Assembly: GCA_949284445.1 (NCBI GenBank)
Contig: CASDVP010000006.1
Location: forward strand, 48,651 to 112,650
DNA: 64,000 nt
Reading direction: 5' to 3'
Source: an uncultured Bacillota bacterium
GTDB taxonomy: Bacteria > Bacillota_I > Bacilli_A > RFN20 > CAG-288
Shown piece after piece: positions 9,949-24,800 of the stretch. Both the position numbers and the translations under genes were made by a program. Position 1 is the stretch's first letter, and every line of letters starts with the position of its first letter. Below the pieces are notes generated by a model, which was not told where the DNA came from, did no database searches, and saw only the letters and a program-made list of their open reading frames with translations.

Positions 9949-10211
9949 ACAAAAGTTAAATAAAAAGTTAAAAAAATTAACAAACTTCGGTATTATGCAA
10001 TAAACTTTTTTAGAAATTTATGTATAACTGAAGTTTAAATTTCCGTCATTATGTGAATAATTGAAATTTTGCTCTCTATAACGTTAATATGAATAAATGA
10101 TAGTTGAAAATATCGCTAAGTATGCGAACTTTTTACAAATATATAAATATCAGAACAATATTTTTAAATTCAGTAAATTTAACCTATTGCACAAGCTAAA
10201 ATCGGATCTAT

Positions 10212-19448: not shown

Positions 19449-19613
19449 ATAATTTTCACCTATTAAATAACGTATATATAATACAAAAGATATTTAATTT
19501 TTCAATTACATTTTATAGAAGAAATTACATTTATTTAATGAAAATTTCAAAATGATTTTTTACTTTTGATAAATGAGTAAATCAAAAAAAAGTGTTAGAA
19601 TGTGAAAGGAAAT

Positions 19614-20492
19614 ATGGATAAACTAGACAAATATGTTTTAAGTAATTGCCAAAAAATACATGGTAAATACATTATAATCACCGGCGCTACTGGTTCTATC
19701 GGCTTTGAAACAGCGAGATTTTTGATGCTCTTAGGTGGAGATATCGGAATCACATATAGAAACAAAGAAAAAGCCTTGGCTGTTAAAGATAAATTAGAAA
19801 AAGAATTTGGTAAAGCAGTTGATATTTATCCGTTAGATCTAACAGATATCAATCAAGTGCGGTCTTTTCCACATATGATTGATAAAAACGTGGATTTCTT
19901 ATTCAATGTTGCTGGGACTTATCATCTGCCTAAAAAGATCATCGATGATAAATATGAAATAACATTTTTATCTGATTTTCTTTCGGTATCTATTTTAAAC
20001 AGGCTATTTTTAGAAAAATATCCGAATATCACAATCGTTAATACTGGAAGCGTTTCTATGTATTATTCAAAAGTTGATTTTGATGATATCATGGGAATAA
20101 ATGTAAAAAATAAAACAGTTCGATATGGTCGAGATAAAAGATTATTAGCATTAGATACATTGAATTTAAAGGAAAGATGTCCGAATAATCGCATCGTCTT
20201 ATGTCATCCAGGGGTATCGGCAACTTCTCTTTTTGCTAGCTCTAAGGGAGGGTTTAACAAAGCCTTTAACGCATTGATCTTTCCTCTGATGAAAGTTATT
20301 TTTATGTCACCTAAAAAAGCCTCATTAAGCATTGTGATGGGCGCATTTCTCAGCCTTAAAAATGATGAATTGGTCGCTCCTAGAGGATTTTTACATTCTT
20401 GGGGATACCCTAAAGCTATCAAGTTTAGAAAATCTTTATCACGCAGTTTAGAAAGAAAAAGATTGAAAGAGATATACGATAAACTATTATGA
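19614..20492 (+). CDS. SDR family oxidoreductase
   Basis: ITGATGSIG, YGRDK (YxxxK), HPGVSAT. Start ATG 19614 after AAAGGA and TGTTAGAAT. Confidence 0.85.
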   Translation: MDKLDKYVLSNCQKIHGKYIIITGATGSIGFETARFLMLLGGDIGITYRNKEKALAVKDKLEKEFGKAVDIYPLDLTDINQVRSFPHMIDKNVDFLFNVAGTYHLPKKIIDDKYEITFLSDFLSVSILNRLFLEKYPNITIVNTGSVSMYYSKVDFDDIMGINVKNKTVRYGRDKRLLALDTLNLKERCPNNRIVLCHPGVSATSLFASSKGGFNKAFNALIFPLMKVIFMSPKKASLSIVMGAFLSLKNDELVAPRGFLHSWGYPKAIKFRKSLSRSLERKRLKEIYDKLL

Positions 20493-21385
20493 AAAAAGCG
20501 ATATTGATCTATTACACTGGCACCTATAATACCAGGTATTTAGCAAAAAAGATCGGTGAGAAGATTTCTGGTGCATTTAATGTGGATTACTTAGAAGTAG
20601 ATTCTCATTCCCAACCGATCGATTTATCTTCATTTGATCTCATAGGATTAGGTTATCCGATCTATGCGTTTAATGCACCATCCTTTTTTCTTAAGTATTT
20701 AAAACGATTAAAGTTTCCTGCTGATAAACAATACTTTATATTTAAAAACTCAGGAGAAAGTTTTGCCTTAAATAATGCATCCAGTCGAAAAATAATCAGA
20801 TATTTGAAGAAAAACCATGTTAACCGTTTCTCAGAATATCATTTTTTGATGCCGTATAATATTCATTTTAAATATGATGATGCTTTTATATCTGAACTTT
20901 TTGAAGCGGATAAAAAGCTTCTAGAAGTGTTACATTTTGATATTTTAAATGTTCATACTCGTTCTATAAAAAGCAATTTCATCTATAATTTAGTGTCTAA
21001 AATATTGCGTATTCAAACATTTGGTGGGTATCTCAATTCATATTTTTATAAAGTTGATAACACTAAATGCATCGATTGCGGAATGTGTGTTAGAAATTGT
21101 CCAGTTGAAAATATTTATTATAAAAATGGTCATATCAAATTTAAGCATCATTGTCTGATGTGTATGCGGTGTTCCTTTTATTGTCCAAAGGATGCTATCT
21201 CAATAGGCATGCTTAAAAATTGGAAAGTGAATGGTGGTTATGACTTTAAAATGATCGAACAAAACAAAGGATTAAAAGAGAAGAAGTTTATAGAAAAACA
21301 AAAGGGATTCTTTTATAAATGTTATCCAAAAACCTTTAAAGAAATTGATAAGATGTATAATCAAATAATATCAAAGTCTGACTAA
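20489..21385 (+). CDS. EFR1 family flavodoxin-ferredoxin fusion
   Basis: YYTGTYNT, GLGYPIYAFNAP, two CxxCxxCxxxCP motifs (CIDCGMCVRNCP; CLMCMRCSFYCP). Confidence 0.9.
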   Translation: MKKAILIYYTGTYNTRYLAKKIGEKISGAFNVDYLEVDSHSQPIDLSSFDLIGLGYPIYAFNAPSFFLKYLKRLKFPADKQYFIFKNSGESFALNNASSRKIIRYLKKNHVNRFSEYHFLMPYNIHFKYDDAFISELFEADKKLLEVLHFDILNVHTRSIKSNFIYNLVSKILRIQTFGGYLNSYFYKVDNTKCIDCGMCVRNCPVENIYYKNGHIKFKHHCLMCMRCSFYCPKDAISIGMLKNWKVNGGYDFKMIEQNKGLKEKKFIEKQKGFFYKCYPKTFKEIDKMYNQIISKSD

Positions 21386-21405
21386 TATTTTCAGTGTATC
21401 TTCTG

Positions 21406-21693
21406 TTATTTAGCTAATTCAGAAGGATCAGAATAACGATTATGTTTGACTCTATCACGAACTTCAGCTTTCTTAGCGTTGTTGAAACGATCTAAAGTTC
21501 CAACTAAGTAACCAGTGATTCTTCTGATTCTTTCAAAATTCTTTTCCTGATAATGATATGAGCAATCTAAATAATCACCATCTTGGTTGATCGTTAAGCT
21601 TGTGATGACTTTATCGGGATTCTTTTCTTGAATCTGTTTTAAACAATATTCCTTTTCCTCTTCACTGACCTGTCCTGTTACTTTTATTTCCAT
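21406..21693 (-). CDS. stand-alone 95-aa protein carrying the NrdD (class III RNR) C-terminal glycyl-radical motif
   Basis: RIRRITGYLVGTLDRFNNAKKAEVRDRVKH matches the NrdD C-terminus. Own SD (GGAGG) and extended -10 (TGCTATATT). Confidence 0.85.
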   Translation of the reverse strand: MEIKVTGQVSEEEKEYCLKQIQEKNPDKVITSLTINQDGDYLDCSYHYQEKNFERIRRITGYLVGTLDRFNNAKKAEVRDRVKHNRYSDPSELAK

Positions 21694-21846
21694 AAACGTT
21701 TACCTCCATTTGTAATAATATAGCAGTTTGAAAAAAATAATGGTTAAAATATGATCACTGAGCTGTCGAGACAAATATAAAAAGACGGCACTAAACATAT
21801 ATTTATATGATATACTTTTATTGCTGTTTTATTCGGGAACTGATCA

Positions 21847-24800
21847 ATGGAAAAAGTTAATAAAAAAAAGCAAAAACTGAGTTTGAAACAATTCTGTTTA
21901 CGATGCATCGGCTTGATGTTGATTTGCCTTGCGATAATAGGTGCTACTAATCATACTTTCATCGGAACTTTTTTTACTTATAGTTTTTCTTTTCTTTTCG
22001 GATATTATTATTTCGTCATTTTATTCTTGTTTTTGATTTTCGGATTTCGATTGACTTTTTCTCTTTCATCCTTCCCTTTTAAAAAACATATTTCAATTTG
22101 GATTTCTGTAATTTTGTTATTCATTTCTATAATCTCTCTCTCATCAATTCCTCTTTATGATGCTGATAATGTGACTTTATCTTCATTTTCACAGGTATAT
22201 ATGGAAGAGATGTCGGCTTTTTCGCCAAAAGCCTTTGCTCCTGAAAACTTTTCTTCTTTAATCAATCTTTCAGGTGGATATTTAGGCCTGTTCTTCATGA
22301 TTCTTTTTGGCAGTATGTGGGGACTTATCGGAGATTGTTTTTTCTTCGGTATCCTTTTATTGGTATCGCTGATCATTCTTTTTGTCAGACCATTCAAGCG
22401 TGCAGTCGATAAGAAAAAAGAGAAACAGATAAGCGATCAATATAAATCTCCTTATCAGAACGGAACCAGCACTAAAGCTTCAAAAAATAAACCGATTCCT
22501 GTAAAAAAGACGGTGAATCCCTCTCTTGTTGCCCCTCTCACTTCTGATTTTGGTCGATCTAATCAAGGAGGCTTTGTCTCTTCAAATAAAACTGCTGCTG
22601 AGAACAAGCAGGCGAATCCACAACCGACTATCATCATAGCTCCTACTCCAATCTACCCTTCTGAAAGCCATCTGTCAGGAGCTAATAATCCTGTTGACAA
22701 TAGTTTATTGAATCAACCTTTTCAGAGAGCAAATGCTAAACCTATCAATTCTAACTTTGATACCGCTCAAGCATCGGTTACAACCGCTGAGAGAAATGCT
22801 CCTCAAAACAATCAATCCGCGATCGATTATGCGGCTTTATATCATGAACAATTGCGCAAGAATAATGAATTGACTAAGAGATTGACAGAACAGCAAGCAC
22901 AACTTCAAGCTAAAAATGAACAGGCTAGTTTTATTGATACTAGCAGATCACAATCCACTGCATCTCGCTATTATAGTCAGACTGATAATAAGAGCATCGA
23001 CCACAAAACTTCTAACAGTTCTTATAGTTCATATAATAACGGCTATTTTTCTACTCTAAAAAGAGCTGAGCCTTCTAAACCTGTATCCGATATTAAAAAA
23101 GAGACTGATATCAAGCCTAGTTCTTCGAATCTATCACAATCTAAATCCTATGGATTATCTCCTGAAGAAAAAGATGCCTTGCTAAAACGTGCTCAAGCAT
23201 TTAAGGCTAATTCCTTAAGGACTGATAATTCCACTTTTGATGTGGCACCGGATGATGATGTCGGATTTGTGAATCAAAATGAGAACAGTTCGTTTATACC
23301 TAGTCGTGCAAATAGCACTAACCGTGCATATCACACCAATTACAATCCATTAGAAGCTCAAGCTCAAAAAGTGAGAAATCTTCCTGAGAAAGATACTGGC
23401 CCTAAAGAATTCCAAGTCGATTTACCTGCTGAGCAAAAAGAAGAAGTCAATGCAGAGCAAAACAGTGAAGAGATGCTCGAGCAGAGGTATTTTGAGATTA
23501 AACGTAGAAAACGTGAAGCTGAAGAACAAAAGCTAAAAGCGGAAGAGGAAGCTAAAAAAGCTGCTGTTTATAAATATGTTTCTAAAGCTCCTCGCATCTA
23601 TGATTATCCTTTACCGGATGATAATTTATTGGAAGATAAAGATGATTCTGAAAAATTGATCATCAATTCTCAAGCTGCCCAAGAAAAAGCTAAGATCATC
23701 AATAACTTTTTTGAGAATTTCCGCATCCAAGCTAAAGCTATTTCATATACGATAGGTGCTTCTGTCACAAGGTTTAATATTCAAACTGAGCCTGGTGTTC
23801 GCAGCGAAAAAATCGCTTCGTTAGCTAATGACTTACAAATCGCTTTAAACGGTGATAAATCTGTTCGTATCGAAACCGTCGTCGAAGGTCGGTCTACTTC
23901 TGGTATAGAAATCGGAAATGCTGCTCCTATGGCTGTTCCTTTCAAAGAAGTTTTCATGGAGATCGAAAAGAATACTAAAGATAATCTTTTATTGCCGATA
24001 GGCAAAGATATCTCAGGTAAGATAGTCACTTATCCTTTGAATGATATGCCGCATTTATTAGTGGCTGGAACAACTGGTTCTGGTAAATCAGTTTTAGTTC
24101 ATTCGATGATCATGACATTGATCATGCGCAATTACCCTTCACAATTAAAACTGATGTTGATCGATCCTAAACAAGTTGAATTCGCAAAATACAATTTAGA
24201 ACCGCATTTGTATTGCCCAGTCGTCTCTAATCCTGCTAGTGCGATCACCGCTTTGCAAAAGTTATGCGAAGAGATGGATAGACGTTATTCGGTCCTTTCC
24301 AAATGGCATTGTGTCAAAATCAGCGAATACTTAGAAAAGAGACGCAATCGCGAAGATCAGATGGAAGAGATGCCGAATGTCGTATGTGTGATCGATGAAT
24401 TCGCTGATCTGATGCAGACCGGTGGTGATGAAGTAGCAAGCTGTGTGCAAAGACTCACTCAAAAGGCGCGTGCTGCAGGTATTTATCTGATCATAGCGAC
24501 ACAAAGACCTAGTAAAGACGTCATACCGATGACTGTGAAAGGTAACATCTCATGTCGTATCGGTTTATGCTGTTCGACCGGTGTTGATTCACGTGTCATC
24601 CTCGATGAGAATGGAGCGGAGACCCTCTTAGGTAAAGGAGACTTGTTGTTTAAAGCTCCTGGTAAGAAATCTTTGATCCGTGCTCAGTCACCATTCATTT
24701 CTAATGAGGACATGGAACGGGTTTTGGAATATGTGCACGATAAAGCTGGGGATCCCAATTATGATCCTGATTTCTTAGACTTAGAAGTCAAAGACGAAGA

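What the first reader, a model, noticed from the sequence alone, without database searches (positions are those of the whole stretch)
21406..21693. Autonomous NrdD-type glycyl-radical mini-protein: possible spare part for class III ribonucleotide reductase
Seen: a 95-aa ORF with its own promoter and SD ends in RRITGYL...FN..K..EV.DRVKH, with Gly61 at 21513-21511. It has no CxxC Zn motif. No room exists upstream for a broken nrdD, since ftsK starts divergently 153 bp away. Established: this is the radical-bearing C-terminus of NrdD; O2 cleaves glycyl-radical enzymes at that Gly, and GrcA/YfiD repairs cleaved pyruvate formate-lyase as a stand-alone radical domain. Inference: an analogous repair cofactor for anaerobic RNR. 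Such short proteins are, to my recollection, usually annotated simply as NrdD, and I know of no functional study.
Basis: partly seen in the sequence, partly recalled or inferred. Interest (0 to 1): 0.65.

Follow-up and report, generated by a model that had tools for sequence, protein, structure and literature searches.

The report
Stand-alone glycyl-radical module for anaerobic RNR
This 95-residue protein carries only the radical-bearing tip of the oxygen-sensitive anaerobic ribonucleotide reductase, and comparative evidence suggests it is a plug-in replacement radical part, a role so far shown only for pyruvate formate-lyase.

Summary
The ORF is real. It runs 21406-21693 on the minus strand, is 95 aa, and has Gly61 at 21513-21511. 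Residues 48-85 match the extreme C-terminus of NrdD above Pfam's cut-off, and there is no Zn-ribbon CxxC.

It belongs to a large family of 85-100 aa proteins found in at least 598 bacterial species genomes and at least 531 viral contig stretches.

The family has two clades:
- **Obligate clade.** These genes sit between nrdG and an nrdD that ends after the Zn ribbon with no glycine loop (Megamonas funiformis, other bacteria, phages). This split class III RNR shows that such a mini-protein can supply the radical in trans.
- **Stand-alone clade, which includes the window's protein.** It is unlinked from nrdD in 83 of 84 loci. NrdR boxes lie upstream in 37-53 of 84 loci. Some members sit in operons with reverse rubrerythrin or rubredoxin plus a flavodiiron protein. 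Temperate phages carry it as cargo.

In one stand-alone-clade genome a complete NrdD is read directly. In three more, including the window's own metagenomes, a second glycine-loop locus at matching depth has flanks that read like one.

Radical formation and rescue remain untested. I found no published description.

The parts
21406..21693 (-). Complete ORF of the 95-aa mini-NrdD (stand-alone glycyl-radical module)
   Evidence: The ORF is listed and its DNA is shown. The same 95-aa protein is called on 7 ENA contigs, with ftsK kept as the divergent neighbour on all four contigs long enough to show it.
21553..21693 (-). N-terminal domain (residues 1-47), predicted beta-alpha-beta-beta; probably the docking domain
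   Evidence: G7, E13, P26, D38, G39 and Y46 are conserved in at least 90% of 97 members. AlphaFold2 predicts E2-6, H11-24, E29-38 and E41-49 with pLDDT 63-73. The domain is alignable over its full length with operon-linked radical subunits (52.9% identity over residues 1-84). No homology to NrdD (hhalign probability 1.4%) or to any PDB fold was found.
21439..21552 (-). NrdD-type glycyl-radical loop and C-terminal helix (residues 48-85)
   Evidence: The region matches Pfam, NCBIfam and PDB entries. hhalign against complete NrdD C-termini gives probability 99.7% and 71% identity over residues 50-87.
21511..21513 (-). Codon GGT of Gly61, the predicted radical site within RRITGYL
   Evidence: The codon is read. 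The column is invariant.
21455..21501 (.). 47-nt stretch that is exactly repeated in a second locus (probable C-terminus of the resident complete nrdD) in the source metagenomes
   Evidence: Logan assemblies of runs X1-X4 break here. A 47-nt unitig has the summed depth, and paralogous contigs are 92-94% identical over 66-71 nt with only synonymous visible differences. The longest exact match to any other species' mini is 23 nt.
21703..21707 (-). Shine-Dalgarno GGAGG
   Evidence: Shown. SD-like sequences lie at the same distance in nearly all of the 84 homologous loci.
21717..21725 (-). Probable TG-extended -10 promoter element TGCTATATT
   Evidence: Shown. It is conserved as TGCTATAAT in L014 and L037 and as CTATAAT in L006. 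The simple -35/-10 scan did not detect it, so it is inferred.

Best explanation

**Proposed mechanism (inferred).**
1. The activase NrdG, using S-adenosylmethionine, puts a radical on Gly61 of the mini-protein.
2. The N-terminal domain docks the mini-protein on an NrdD whose own C-terminal glycine loop is missing or dead. Oxygen cleaves NrdD at the radical glycine and leaves a core that ends just after the Zn ribbon.
3. The mini's loop inserts into the barrel and restores thiyl-radical generation. The cell recovers dNTP synthesis after transient oxygen exposure without resynthesising the roughly 85-kDa enzyme.

**Shown here.**
- The sequence anatomy.
- Regulatory (NrdR boxes) and occasional operonic linkage to nrd genes.
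- Natural enzymes in a sister clade in which a homologous mini-protein is the only source of the glycine loop for a core that ends after the Zn ribbon.
- Coexistence of this clade's minis with a complete NrdD in one genome read directly.
- A second glycine-loop locus at matching depth in two further genomes and in the window's own metagenomes; the flanks read like a complete NrdD in two of these three, while the Pumilibacter flank shows only an in-frame read-through.

**Inferred.** Activation by NrdG, docking, rescue, and the physiological trigger.
For: 1. **Loop identity.** Residues 48-85 are the NrdD radical loop, and all family-invariant residues are kept.

2. **A real, large family.** It occurs in at least 598 species genomes and forms 1696 clusters at 50% identity with E<=1e-10. 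The N-terminal domain is conserved too.

3. **Trans-complementation exists in nature.**
   - In Megamonas funiformis the order is nrdD (759 aa, no glycine loop), then a 94-aa mini, then nrdG.
   - The same order is seen in L179 and in 63 of 63 Gly-less nrdD metagenome loci with enough downstream sequence.
   - It also occurs in phage contigs L144, L156 and L166.
   - These minis align with the window's protein over residues 1-84 at 41-53% identity.
   - A Gly-less core ends where an O2-cleaved NrdD would end.

4. **The window's clade is separate from those obligate subunits** (NJ tree) **and coexists with complete NrdD.**
   - L053 has nrdD (complete, with its own loop), then mini, then nrdG, then nrdR.
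   - Run X5 is isolate-sized and holds the R. flavefaciens locus. It has a second contig at equal depth reading ...GRKEHSNNVAFDRIRRITGY..., a stop, then MNIRIA.
   - Pumilibacter has a second contig at equal depth reading ...KESEGDFGFERIRR....
   - In the window's metagenomes X1-X4 a paralog reads ...GRHEGEEGVG-FERIRR.... Its depth tracks the window contig and it shares a 47-nt exact repeat with it.

5. **Within-genome similarity.** Mini and NrdD loops are 81-93% identical in DNA within a genome. Between species the median is 69% and the 95th percentile is 78%.

6. **Regulation.** NrdR boxes lie within 200 nt upstream in 37 of 84 loci at <=3 mismatches (background 0.9%) and in 53 of 84 at <=4 mismatches (background 3.5%). 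A perfect box upstream of nrdD in L053 serves as the control.

7. **Oxygen-stress neighbours.** Reverse rubrerythrin lies directly downstream in 7 loci. One locus has rubredoxin plus a flavodiiron protein. A divergent Crp/Fnr regulator with its palindrome occurs in 11 loci.

8. **Phage cargo.** Temperate-phage-like contigs carry the gene beside the lysis cassette, with no nrdD or nrdG within 10 kb. By my recollection this parallels phage T4's GrcA homologue Y06I, cited in PMC13450708.
Against: - There is no biochemical or expression evidence. No RNA runs hold the locus.
- The rest of the window's genome could not be read. Assigning the second glycine-loop locus to the same organism rests on depth co-variation in four samples (ratios 0.8-1.4) and on the exact repeat.
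- For the three Logan-based cases only 30 nt of upstream flank are visible. The Zn-ribbon cysteine itself is not seen (only '?GC' in R. flavefaciens). The Pumilibacter flank (KESEGDFGFE) lacks the GR(K/H)E motif, so it shows only an in-frame read-through with no Met or stop.
- The window's lineage has no NrdR box and no oxygen-stress neighbours.
- Oxygen-stress neighbours occur in only about 10% of loci.
- The AlphaFold2 model is of low confidence (pLDDT 60), and no complex could be modelled.
- After O2 cleavage the N-terminal half of the old loop stays on NrdD and would have to be displaced.
Confidence: 0.55

Rival explanations
1. Obligate radical subunit. In this genome nrdD lacks its own glycine loop, and the 95-aa protein is the only radical carrier of a split class III RNR encoded at an unlinked locus.
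For: - The same protein family supplies exactly this function next to Gly-less nrdD in Megamonas, other bacteria and phages.
- 53 of the 120 closest homologues of one such NrdD lack the RxxGY motif.
- NrdR boxes upstream of stand-alone minis would suit a core RNR subunit.
Against: - Obligate subunits form their own clade. They are adjacent to nrdD in 63 of 63 informative loci, whereas the window's clade is unlinked in 83 of 84 loci.
- The one linked member, L053, sits beside a complete NrdD.
- The window's metagenomes hold a near-identical second loop. It continues in frame from a GRHEGE Zn-ribbon end, and its depth tracks the window contig.
Confidence: 0.12
2. Modulator rather than spare part. 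The mini acts as a decoy or competing substrate for NrdG, as a radical reservoir, or as a competitor for the NrdD barrel. It tunes how much NrdD is active, for example by protecting NrdG or SAM, or by keeping NrdD off when oxygen is present.
For: - The loop is a near-perfect copy of the NrdG substrate.
- Regulation by NrdR and by Crp/Fnr-type regulators in different lineages points to conditional expression.
- Phage carriage could equally serve to manipulate host dNTP supply.
Against: - The obligate-subunit clade shows that the fold is catalytically competent when docked, so a purely inhibitory role needs extra assumptions.
- The conserved N-terminal domain shared with those subunits argues for productive docking.
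Confidence: 0.15
3. Decaying remnant of a duplicated or broken nrdD 3' end with no function.
For: Homology to NrdD covers only the last ~40 residues.
Against: - The gene has its own Shine-Dalgarno sequence and start codon.
- ORF length is conserved at 85-100 aa, and the N-terminal domain is conserved, across hundreds of species and phages.
- Synteny is kept at 72-79% protein identity.
- The visible differences from the paralog are all synonymous.
Confidence: 0.02

Closest known systems
GrcA/YfiD of E. coli and Y06I of phage T4 (autonomous glycyl radical cofactors for pyruvate formate-lyase)
   Same: - It is a small stand-alone protein whose C-terminal part copies the radical loop of a large glycyl-radical enzyme.
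- It has an extra N-terminal part.
- It coexists with the full-length enzyme.
- It is also carried by phages.
- The expected logic is the same: radical installed by the parent's activase, then docking on the oxygen-cleaved enzyme (PMC13450708).
   Different: - The parent enzyme is NrdD, not PFL.
- There is no Pfam Gly_radical (PF01228) match.
- The motif is RRITGYL, not RVSGY.
- The N-terminal part is predicted to be a folded beta-alpha-beta-beta domain, whereas the review describes the YfiD N-terminus as disordered.
- Regulation is by NrdR boxes in many lineages.
- No experiment exists.
C-terminal glycyl-radical domain of NrdD (T4 NrdD by my recollection; Prevotella copri NrdD 8P23)
   Same: Residues 48-85 are homologous to the loop and terminal helix and keep all invariant residues.
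   Different: - There is no catalytic barrel and no ATP-cone.
- There is no Zn ribbon (four Cys). A different N-terminal domain takes its place.
Operon-linked mini-NrdD of split class III RNRs (Megamonas funiformis and others; found here, no publication found)
   Same: The architecture and length are the same, and the proteins align from residue 1 to 84 at 41-53% identity.
   Different: - These form a separate clade.
- They always sit between a Gly-less nrdD and nrdG.
- The window's gene is unlinked, and its clade coexists with complete NrdD.
Split class II RNR NrdJa/NrdJb (Pseudomonas aeruginosa)
   Same: It is a precedent for an RNR catalytic subunit whose C-terminal module is a separate polypeptide (PMC9669993).
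   Different: It belongs to a different RNR class, carries no glycyl radical, and the split module has a different role.

Membership tests
NrdD (Pfam PF13597 / TIGR02487 anaerobic ribonucleoside-triphosphate reductase) | C-terminal glycyl-radical motif RxxGY followed by the conserved terminal helix | tested here: met
   Pfam matches at E 1.1e-8, above the gathering score. hhalign gives probability 99.7%.
NrdD (Pfam PF13597 / TIGR02487 anaerobic ribonucleoside-triphosphate reductase) | Ten-stranded catalytic barrel with the Cys finger loop (a full-length model match) | tested here: not met
   Only model positions 524-562 of 562 match. NCBIfam scores of 15-48 bits fall far below cut-offs of 326-764.
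NrdD (Pfam PF13597 / TIGR02487 anaerobic ribonucleoside-triphosphate reductase) | Zn ribbon with four cysteines preceding the glycine loop | tested here: not met
   The protein has only C17 and C44, and neither is conserved in the family.
[quoted passage not shown] | Small stand-alone protein that copies the radical loop of a glycyl-radical enzyme | tested here: met
[quoted passage not shown] | The parent enzyme in the same genome keeps its own radical loop | tested here: inconclusive
   - Met directly in the clade member L053.
- Very probably met in the R. flavefaciens-locus run X5. In Pumilibacter a second loop locus sits at equal depth, but its 30-nt flank does not reach the Zn ribbon.
- For the window itself a second loop with a Zn-ribbon-type flank is present at co-varying depth, but genome membership is not proven.
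[quoted passage not shown] | Sequence homology to GrcA / the PFL C-terminus (Pfam Gly_radical PF01228) | tested here: not met
   No PF01228 hit appears at E<=1. It is an analogue, not a homologue, of GrcA.
[quoted passage not shown] | Radical installed by the parent's activase, and activity restored to the oxygen-cleaved enzyme | not testable with these tools
   This needs EPR and activity assays.
Radical subunit of split class III RNR (found here) | Encoded directly downstream of an nrdD that ends after the Zn ribbon, and upstream of nrdG | tested here: not met
   No nrdD or nrdG lies in the 64-kb window. The neighbours are ftsK and a flavodoxin-like Fe-S protein.
Radical subunit of split class III RNR (found here) | Membership of the operon-linked clade | tested here: not met
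   The NJ tree of 175 minis places the window with the stand-alone sequences.

The most novel reading that the evidence does not exclude
Class III ribonucleotide reductases of many gut and rumen Firmicutes use an exchangeable 'radical cartridge'. This is a small protein carrying the oxygen-labile glycine loop. It can be the only loop (naturally split enzymes such as that of Megamonas) or a spare for a complete NrdD (this window, Ruminococcus flavefaciens, probably Pumilibacter). Temperate and jumbo phages spread it as cargo that keeps host dNTP synthesis running after oxygen exposure. That would make it the first spare-part system for a glycyl-radical enzyme other than pyruvate formate-lyase, and the first split class III RNR.
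Probability: 0.45. Interest if true: 0.85.

Novelty: new variant of a known kind. Interest (0 to 1): 0.78.

Why it matters
**An open question becomes testable.** A 2026 review of glycyl-radical enzymes states that spare-part proteins are known only for formate lyases, and that whether they exist for other family members is undetermined (PMC13450708). This family is a concrete candidate for the anaerobic RNR, an essential enzyme of strict anaerobes. Cultured carriers are available for direct testing: R. flavefaciens and Pumilibacter intestinalis, with Megamonas funiformis for the split form.

**Possible physiological role.** It would help explain how oxygen-sensitive gut and rumen anaerobes keep DNA synthesis going through oxygen pulses.

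**Annotation.** NrdD proteins without a glycine loop should not be read as pseudogenes. The small ORFs next to them, or elsewhere in the genome, should not be named 'NrdD'.

**Phage biology.** The family adds a new kind of phage auxiliary gene.

**Practical tool.** The naturally split enzymes offer a two-piece system for studying radical installation and transfer in class III RNR.

Tried and rejected
- **N-terminal domain as a diverged copy of the NrdD segment before the Zn ribbon.** A BLAST alignment to a Thomasclavelia phage NrdD suggested this. hhalign gives probability 1.4%, so I rejected it.
- **Pfam aRib hit on residues 5-40.** It scores 22.6 bits, below the cut-off of 27, so I treated it as spurious. 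The PDB hit 3VZA (E 0.2) was ignored.
- **Foldseek of the AlphaFold2 model against the PDB.** Nothing scored below E 0.6, and the model itself is weak (pLDDT 60).
- **RNA evidence.** Only four DNA metagenome runs hold the locus.
- **Rfam scan of 21200-22000.** Only a chance snoRNA match at E 0.65.
- **NrdR box upstream of the window's gene.** None at <=5 mismatches.
- **Showing that the second loop contigs carry a whole nrdD.** I laid them on nrdD of L194 and L053. The isolate-sized run X5 had no >=80% match, and the 6450-bp contig was not among the pieces listed.
- **The listing of cluster members on Gly-less NrdDs.** It returned no organism names.
- **The last homologue search.** It was saturated by near-identical Megamonas sequences. 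This gave a named cultured example, but no NrdD from the window's lineage.
- **W versus F in the DR[WF]N motif as a marker of linked versus stand-alone minis.** It does not discriminate.

Full report
**1. The observation**

The ORF at 21406-21693 on the minus strand is real. It is 95 aa long and starts with ATG. A GGAGG lies 9 nt upstream, and a TG-extended -10 (TGCTATATT, 21725-21717) lies upstream of that. Gly61 is the GGT at 21513-21511 within RRITGYL. The divergent ftsK starts 153 nt away.

Pfam NRDD matches residues 44-84 to the very end of the model, above the gathering score. NCBIfam NrdD models and the P. copri NrdD structure 8P23 match the same stretch. There are only two cysteines and no CxxC.

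The simple promoter scan does not find a canonical -35/-10 pair, and no terminator is found. However, relatives keep TGCTATAAT at the same position. The 64-kb window holds no nrdD or nrdG. The window is part of a 111.6-kb ENA metagenome scaffold.

**2. A large conserved family**

- A search of 5.8 billion proteins returned thousands of relatives. The best 120 are all 77-135 aa, and the few that are named are called 'anaerobic ribonucleoside-triphosphate reductase' or 'hypothetical'.
- In 97 aligned members, 19 columns are invariant (F53, R55-T66, N71, K74, E77, R81, H84). The N-terminal half has its own conserved positions (G7, E13, P26, D38, G39, Y46).
- A profile search of 1.84 billion cluster representatives found 1696 clusters at E<=1e-10. 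The top 150 are nearly all 56-236 aa.
They include Oscillospiraceae, Lachnospiraceae, Erysipelotrichaceae, Acholeplasmatales and Christensenellaceae. Cultured carriers include Ruminococcus flavefaciens FD-1 and ATCC 19208 and Pumilibacter intestinalis.
- At least 531 stretches in IMG/VR viral contigs encode a relative, and the 80 kept are mini-type.
- AlphaFold2 gives a low-confidence model (pLDDT 60). It has a beta-alpha-beta-beta N-domain, an unstructured glycine loop and a C-terminal helix. Foldseek finds nothing.
- Profile-profile comparison confirms homology to NrdD only for residues 50-87 (probability 99.7%). It does not confirm it for the N-domain (1.4%).

**3. Naturally split class III RNRs**

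This was the unexpected result. In phage contigs L144, L166 and L156 the mini gene lies just downstream of an nrdD that ends shortly after the Zn ribbon and has no RxxGY motif.

Of the 120 closest homologues of one such NrdD, 53 lack the motif. They fall into two tail types:
- **Type A** ends ...CPRCGRREGE..S.EKL.EL.KKYP.MP... It is followed by a 49-74 aa glycine-loop peptide and then nrdG. An example lies on a 2.39-Mb contig.
- **Type B** ends ...C..C.R.E.EH..H.VVPRM... It is followed by a mini of about 94-100 aa with the N-domain and then nrdG.

A metagenome scan anchored on type-B NrdD returned 13 complete and 67 Gly-less nrdD genes. All 63 Gly-less genes with at least 500 nt of downstream sequence have a glycine-loop ORF downstream on the same strand.

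One such operon belongs to Megamonas funiformis, a cultured human-gut bacterium. The order is NrdD of 759 aa, a 94-aa mini, then NrdG. It was seen on 956 contigs, including one of 2.46 Mb, with further near-identical clusters on contigs of 2.3-2.4 Mb.

These operon-linked minis align with the window's protein over residues 1-84 at 41-53% identity. A homologous mini-protein is therefore the sole source of the radical loop for a core that ends just after the Zn ribbon. That is also roughly where an oxygen-cleaved NrdD ends.

I found no description of a split class III RNR in the searchable literature. Split class II enzymes are known (PMC9669993).

**4. Which mode applies to the window's gene**

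A neighbour-joining tree of 175 minis puts all operon-linked sequences in one clade. The stand-alone genomic sequences, including the window's, group with most viral ones in the rest of the tree.

In the stand-alone clade, 83 of 84 non-redundant loci have no nrdD or nrdG within 10 kb. The exception is L053, with nrdD, mini, nrdG, nrdR in that order. Its NrdD is complete: ATP-cone, full NRDD model, CxxC...CxxC and its own loop. Residues 52-91 of the mini are 88% identical to residues 738-778 of that NrdD.

I used Logan contigs to look for second loop copies.

- **R. flavefaciens.** Run X5 is isolate-sized (3.9 Mb) and carries the ATCC 19208 locus at 100% identity.
  - It has a second contig of 87 kb at the same depth (402 versus 404).
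  - That contig matches only the 107-nt loop region, at 81% identity.
  - The match is preceded in frame by ?GRKEHSNNVAF. It is followed by a stop and then ATGAATATCAGGATTGCC (MNIRIA, an NrdG-like start).
- **Pumilibacter.** Three runs each show one extra contig at equal depth. It is 85% identical over 93 nt and is preceded in frame by KESEGDFGFE.
- **The window's own metagenomes (X1-X4).**
  - The assembly graph breaks inside the gene.
  - A 47-nt unitig (21455-21501) has the summed depth.
  - A paralog is 92-94% identical over 66-71 nt, and its visible differences are all synonymous.
  - The paralog is preceded in frame by GRHEGEEGVG and ends ...GRKFED*.
  - Paralog depth versus window-contig depth in the four samples is about 33 vs 24, 29 vs 23, 10 vs 12 and 7.5 vs 5.8.

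'GR(K/H)E' directly after the last Zn cysteine is typical of NrdD. I therefore read the R. flavefaciens and window flanks as complete NrdD C-termini. The Pumilibacter flank lacks that motif and shows only an in-frame read-through.

Between species the loop DNA is 69% identical at the median, with a 95th percentile of 78%. The longest exact match of the window's loop to another species' mini is 23 nt. The 81-93% identity within genomes therefore indicates co-evolution or gene conversion between the mini and the resident NrdD.

**5. Regulation and context**

- **NrdR boxes** (ACACWATATATWGTGT) lie within 200 nt upstream of stand-alone minis.
  - They occur in 37 of 84 loci at <=3 mismatches (background 0.9%) and in 53 of 84 at <=4 mismatches (background 3.5%).
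  - Some are in pairs 31-32 nt apart.
  - A perfect copy upstream of nrdD in L053 is the control. The box definition follows PMC13584703.
- **The window's lineage has no such box**.
- **R. flavefaciens-like clade.**
  - The mini is followed on the same strand by a reverse rubrerythrin in 7 loci.
  - It is preceded by a divergent Crp/Fnr-family regulator with a C-x3-C-x-C-H motif.
  - A palindrome TTGCA-N2-TGCAA is found in all 11 loci that carry such a regulator and in none of the other 73.
- **One Oscillospiraceae MAG** has mini, rubredoxin and a flavodiiron protein in that order.
- **metK** follows the mini in 5 loci.
- **Phage-like contigs.** In 24-28 of them the mini sits directly upstream of two holin-like genes and an endolysin, downstream of tail genes. 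No nrdD or nrdG lies within 10 kb.
- **The window lineage.** The gene is chromosomal and syntenic next to ftsK at 72-79% protein identity.

**6. Interpretation**

The best-supported reading is a trans-acting glycyl-radical module that serves the resident, complete NrdD. This is the NrdD counterpart of GrcA/YfiD. The sister clade supplies natural proof that such a module works with a core ending after the Zn ribbon.

The obligate-subunit reading for this genome is now unlikely, but it is not excluded because the genome could not be read. A modulatory or decoy role remains possible. Radical formation, docking and rescue are all inferred.

**7. Novelty**

The kind of system (a spare-part protein for a glycyl-radical enzyme) is known only for pyruvate formate-lyase. 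The June 2026 review says explicitly that other cases are undetermined. This family, together with the split class III RNRs uncovered on the way, appears to be undescribed in the library I could search.

Noticed in passing
L174 10001-12786; L175 10001-12981; many of L221-L264: These loci carry a second kind of split class III RNR. The nrdD ends after the Zn ribbon with a conserved extra tail (...EKL.EL.KKYP.MP...). It is followed by a 49-74 aa ORF that holds only the glycine loop and has its own Shine-Dalgarno sequence, and then by nrdG. This arrangement is common in gut metagenomes.
   Followed up: partly
L265 6001-9100 (Megamonas funiformis operon); L203-L218: Cultured Megamonas funiformis encodes nrdD (759 aa, no glycine loop), a 94-aa mini and nrdG. 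NCBI names the large protein simply 'anaerobic ribonucleoside triphosphate reductase'.
   Followed up: yes
L090 9257-9886 and upstream of 10001; also L009, L025, L065, L068, L072, L075, L076, L078, L082, L093: A divergent Crp/Fnr-family regulator carries a conserved R-C-x3-C-x-C-H motif. A palindrome TTGCA-N2-TGCAA in the shared intergenic region occurs in exactly the 11 loci that have such a regulator. This may be a redox or oxygen sensor controlling the mini and reverse-rubrerythrin genes.
   Followed up: partly
L018, L032, L047, L049, L057 (about 520-740 nt downstream of the mini): S-adenosylmethionine synthetase (metK) follows the mini on the same strand in five loci. SAM is the co-substrate of the activase, so the link may be meaningful, or it may be chance.
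   Followed up: no
L123, L135, L151 and about 25 other IMG/VR loci (mini at 10001, next genes at +250, +480, +750): In 40-60 kb phage-like contigs the mini sits between tail genes and a holin-holin-endolysin cassette. This is a typical cargo ('moron') position.
   Followed up: partly
L184 1126-4249 (Thomasclavelia phage TR-TP1, PQ571309.1): The phage nrdD is annotated in two pieces (gp88 and gp86) separated by an HNH endonuclease gene. By my recollection this resembles the intron-interrupted nrdD of phage T4.
   Followed up: no
window 20489-21385 (+) and 19602-20492 (+): A 298-aa protein with a flavodoxin-like N-terminus and two 4Fe-4S motifs lies convergent with the mini, and it overlaps a short-chain dehydrogenase gene. 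By my recollection, flavodoxin-type proteins reduce NrdG in E. coli. However, the pair is replaced by galT and galK in the Enterosoma relative (L006), so the adjacency is not conserved.
   Followed up: partly
window 21455-21501: Public Logan assemblies of four metagenomes all break the contig here. A 47-nt exact repeat is shared with a second locus, so short-read bins of this organism may routinely lose or mis-join one of the two genes.
   Followed up: yes
L011/L012 (188-261 kb contigs), L107, L109, L114, L148, L153: Very long phage-like contigs (150-260 kb), including IMG/VR viral contigs, carry stand-alone minis among many small unannotated ORFs. Whether these putative jumbo phages also encode an NrdD core elsewhere was not checked.
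   Followed up: no
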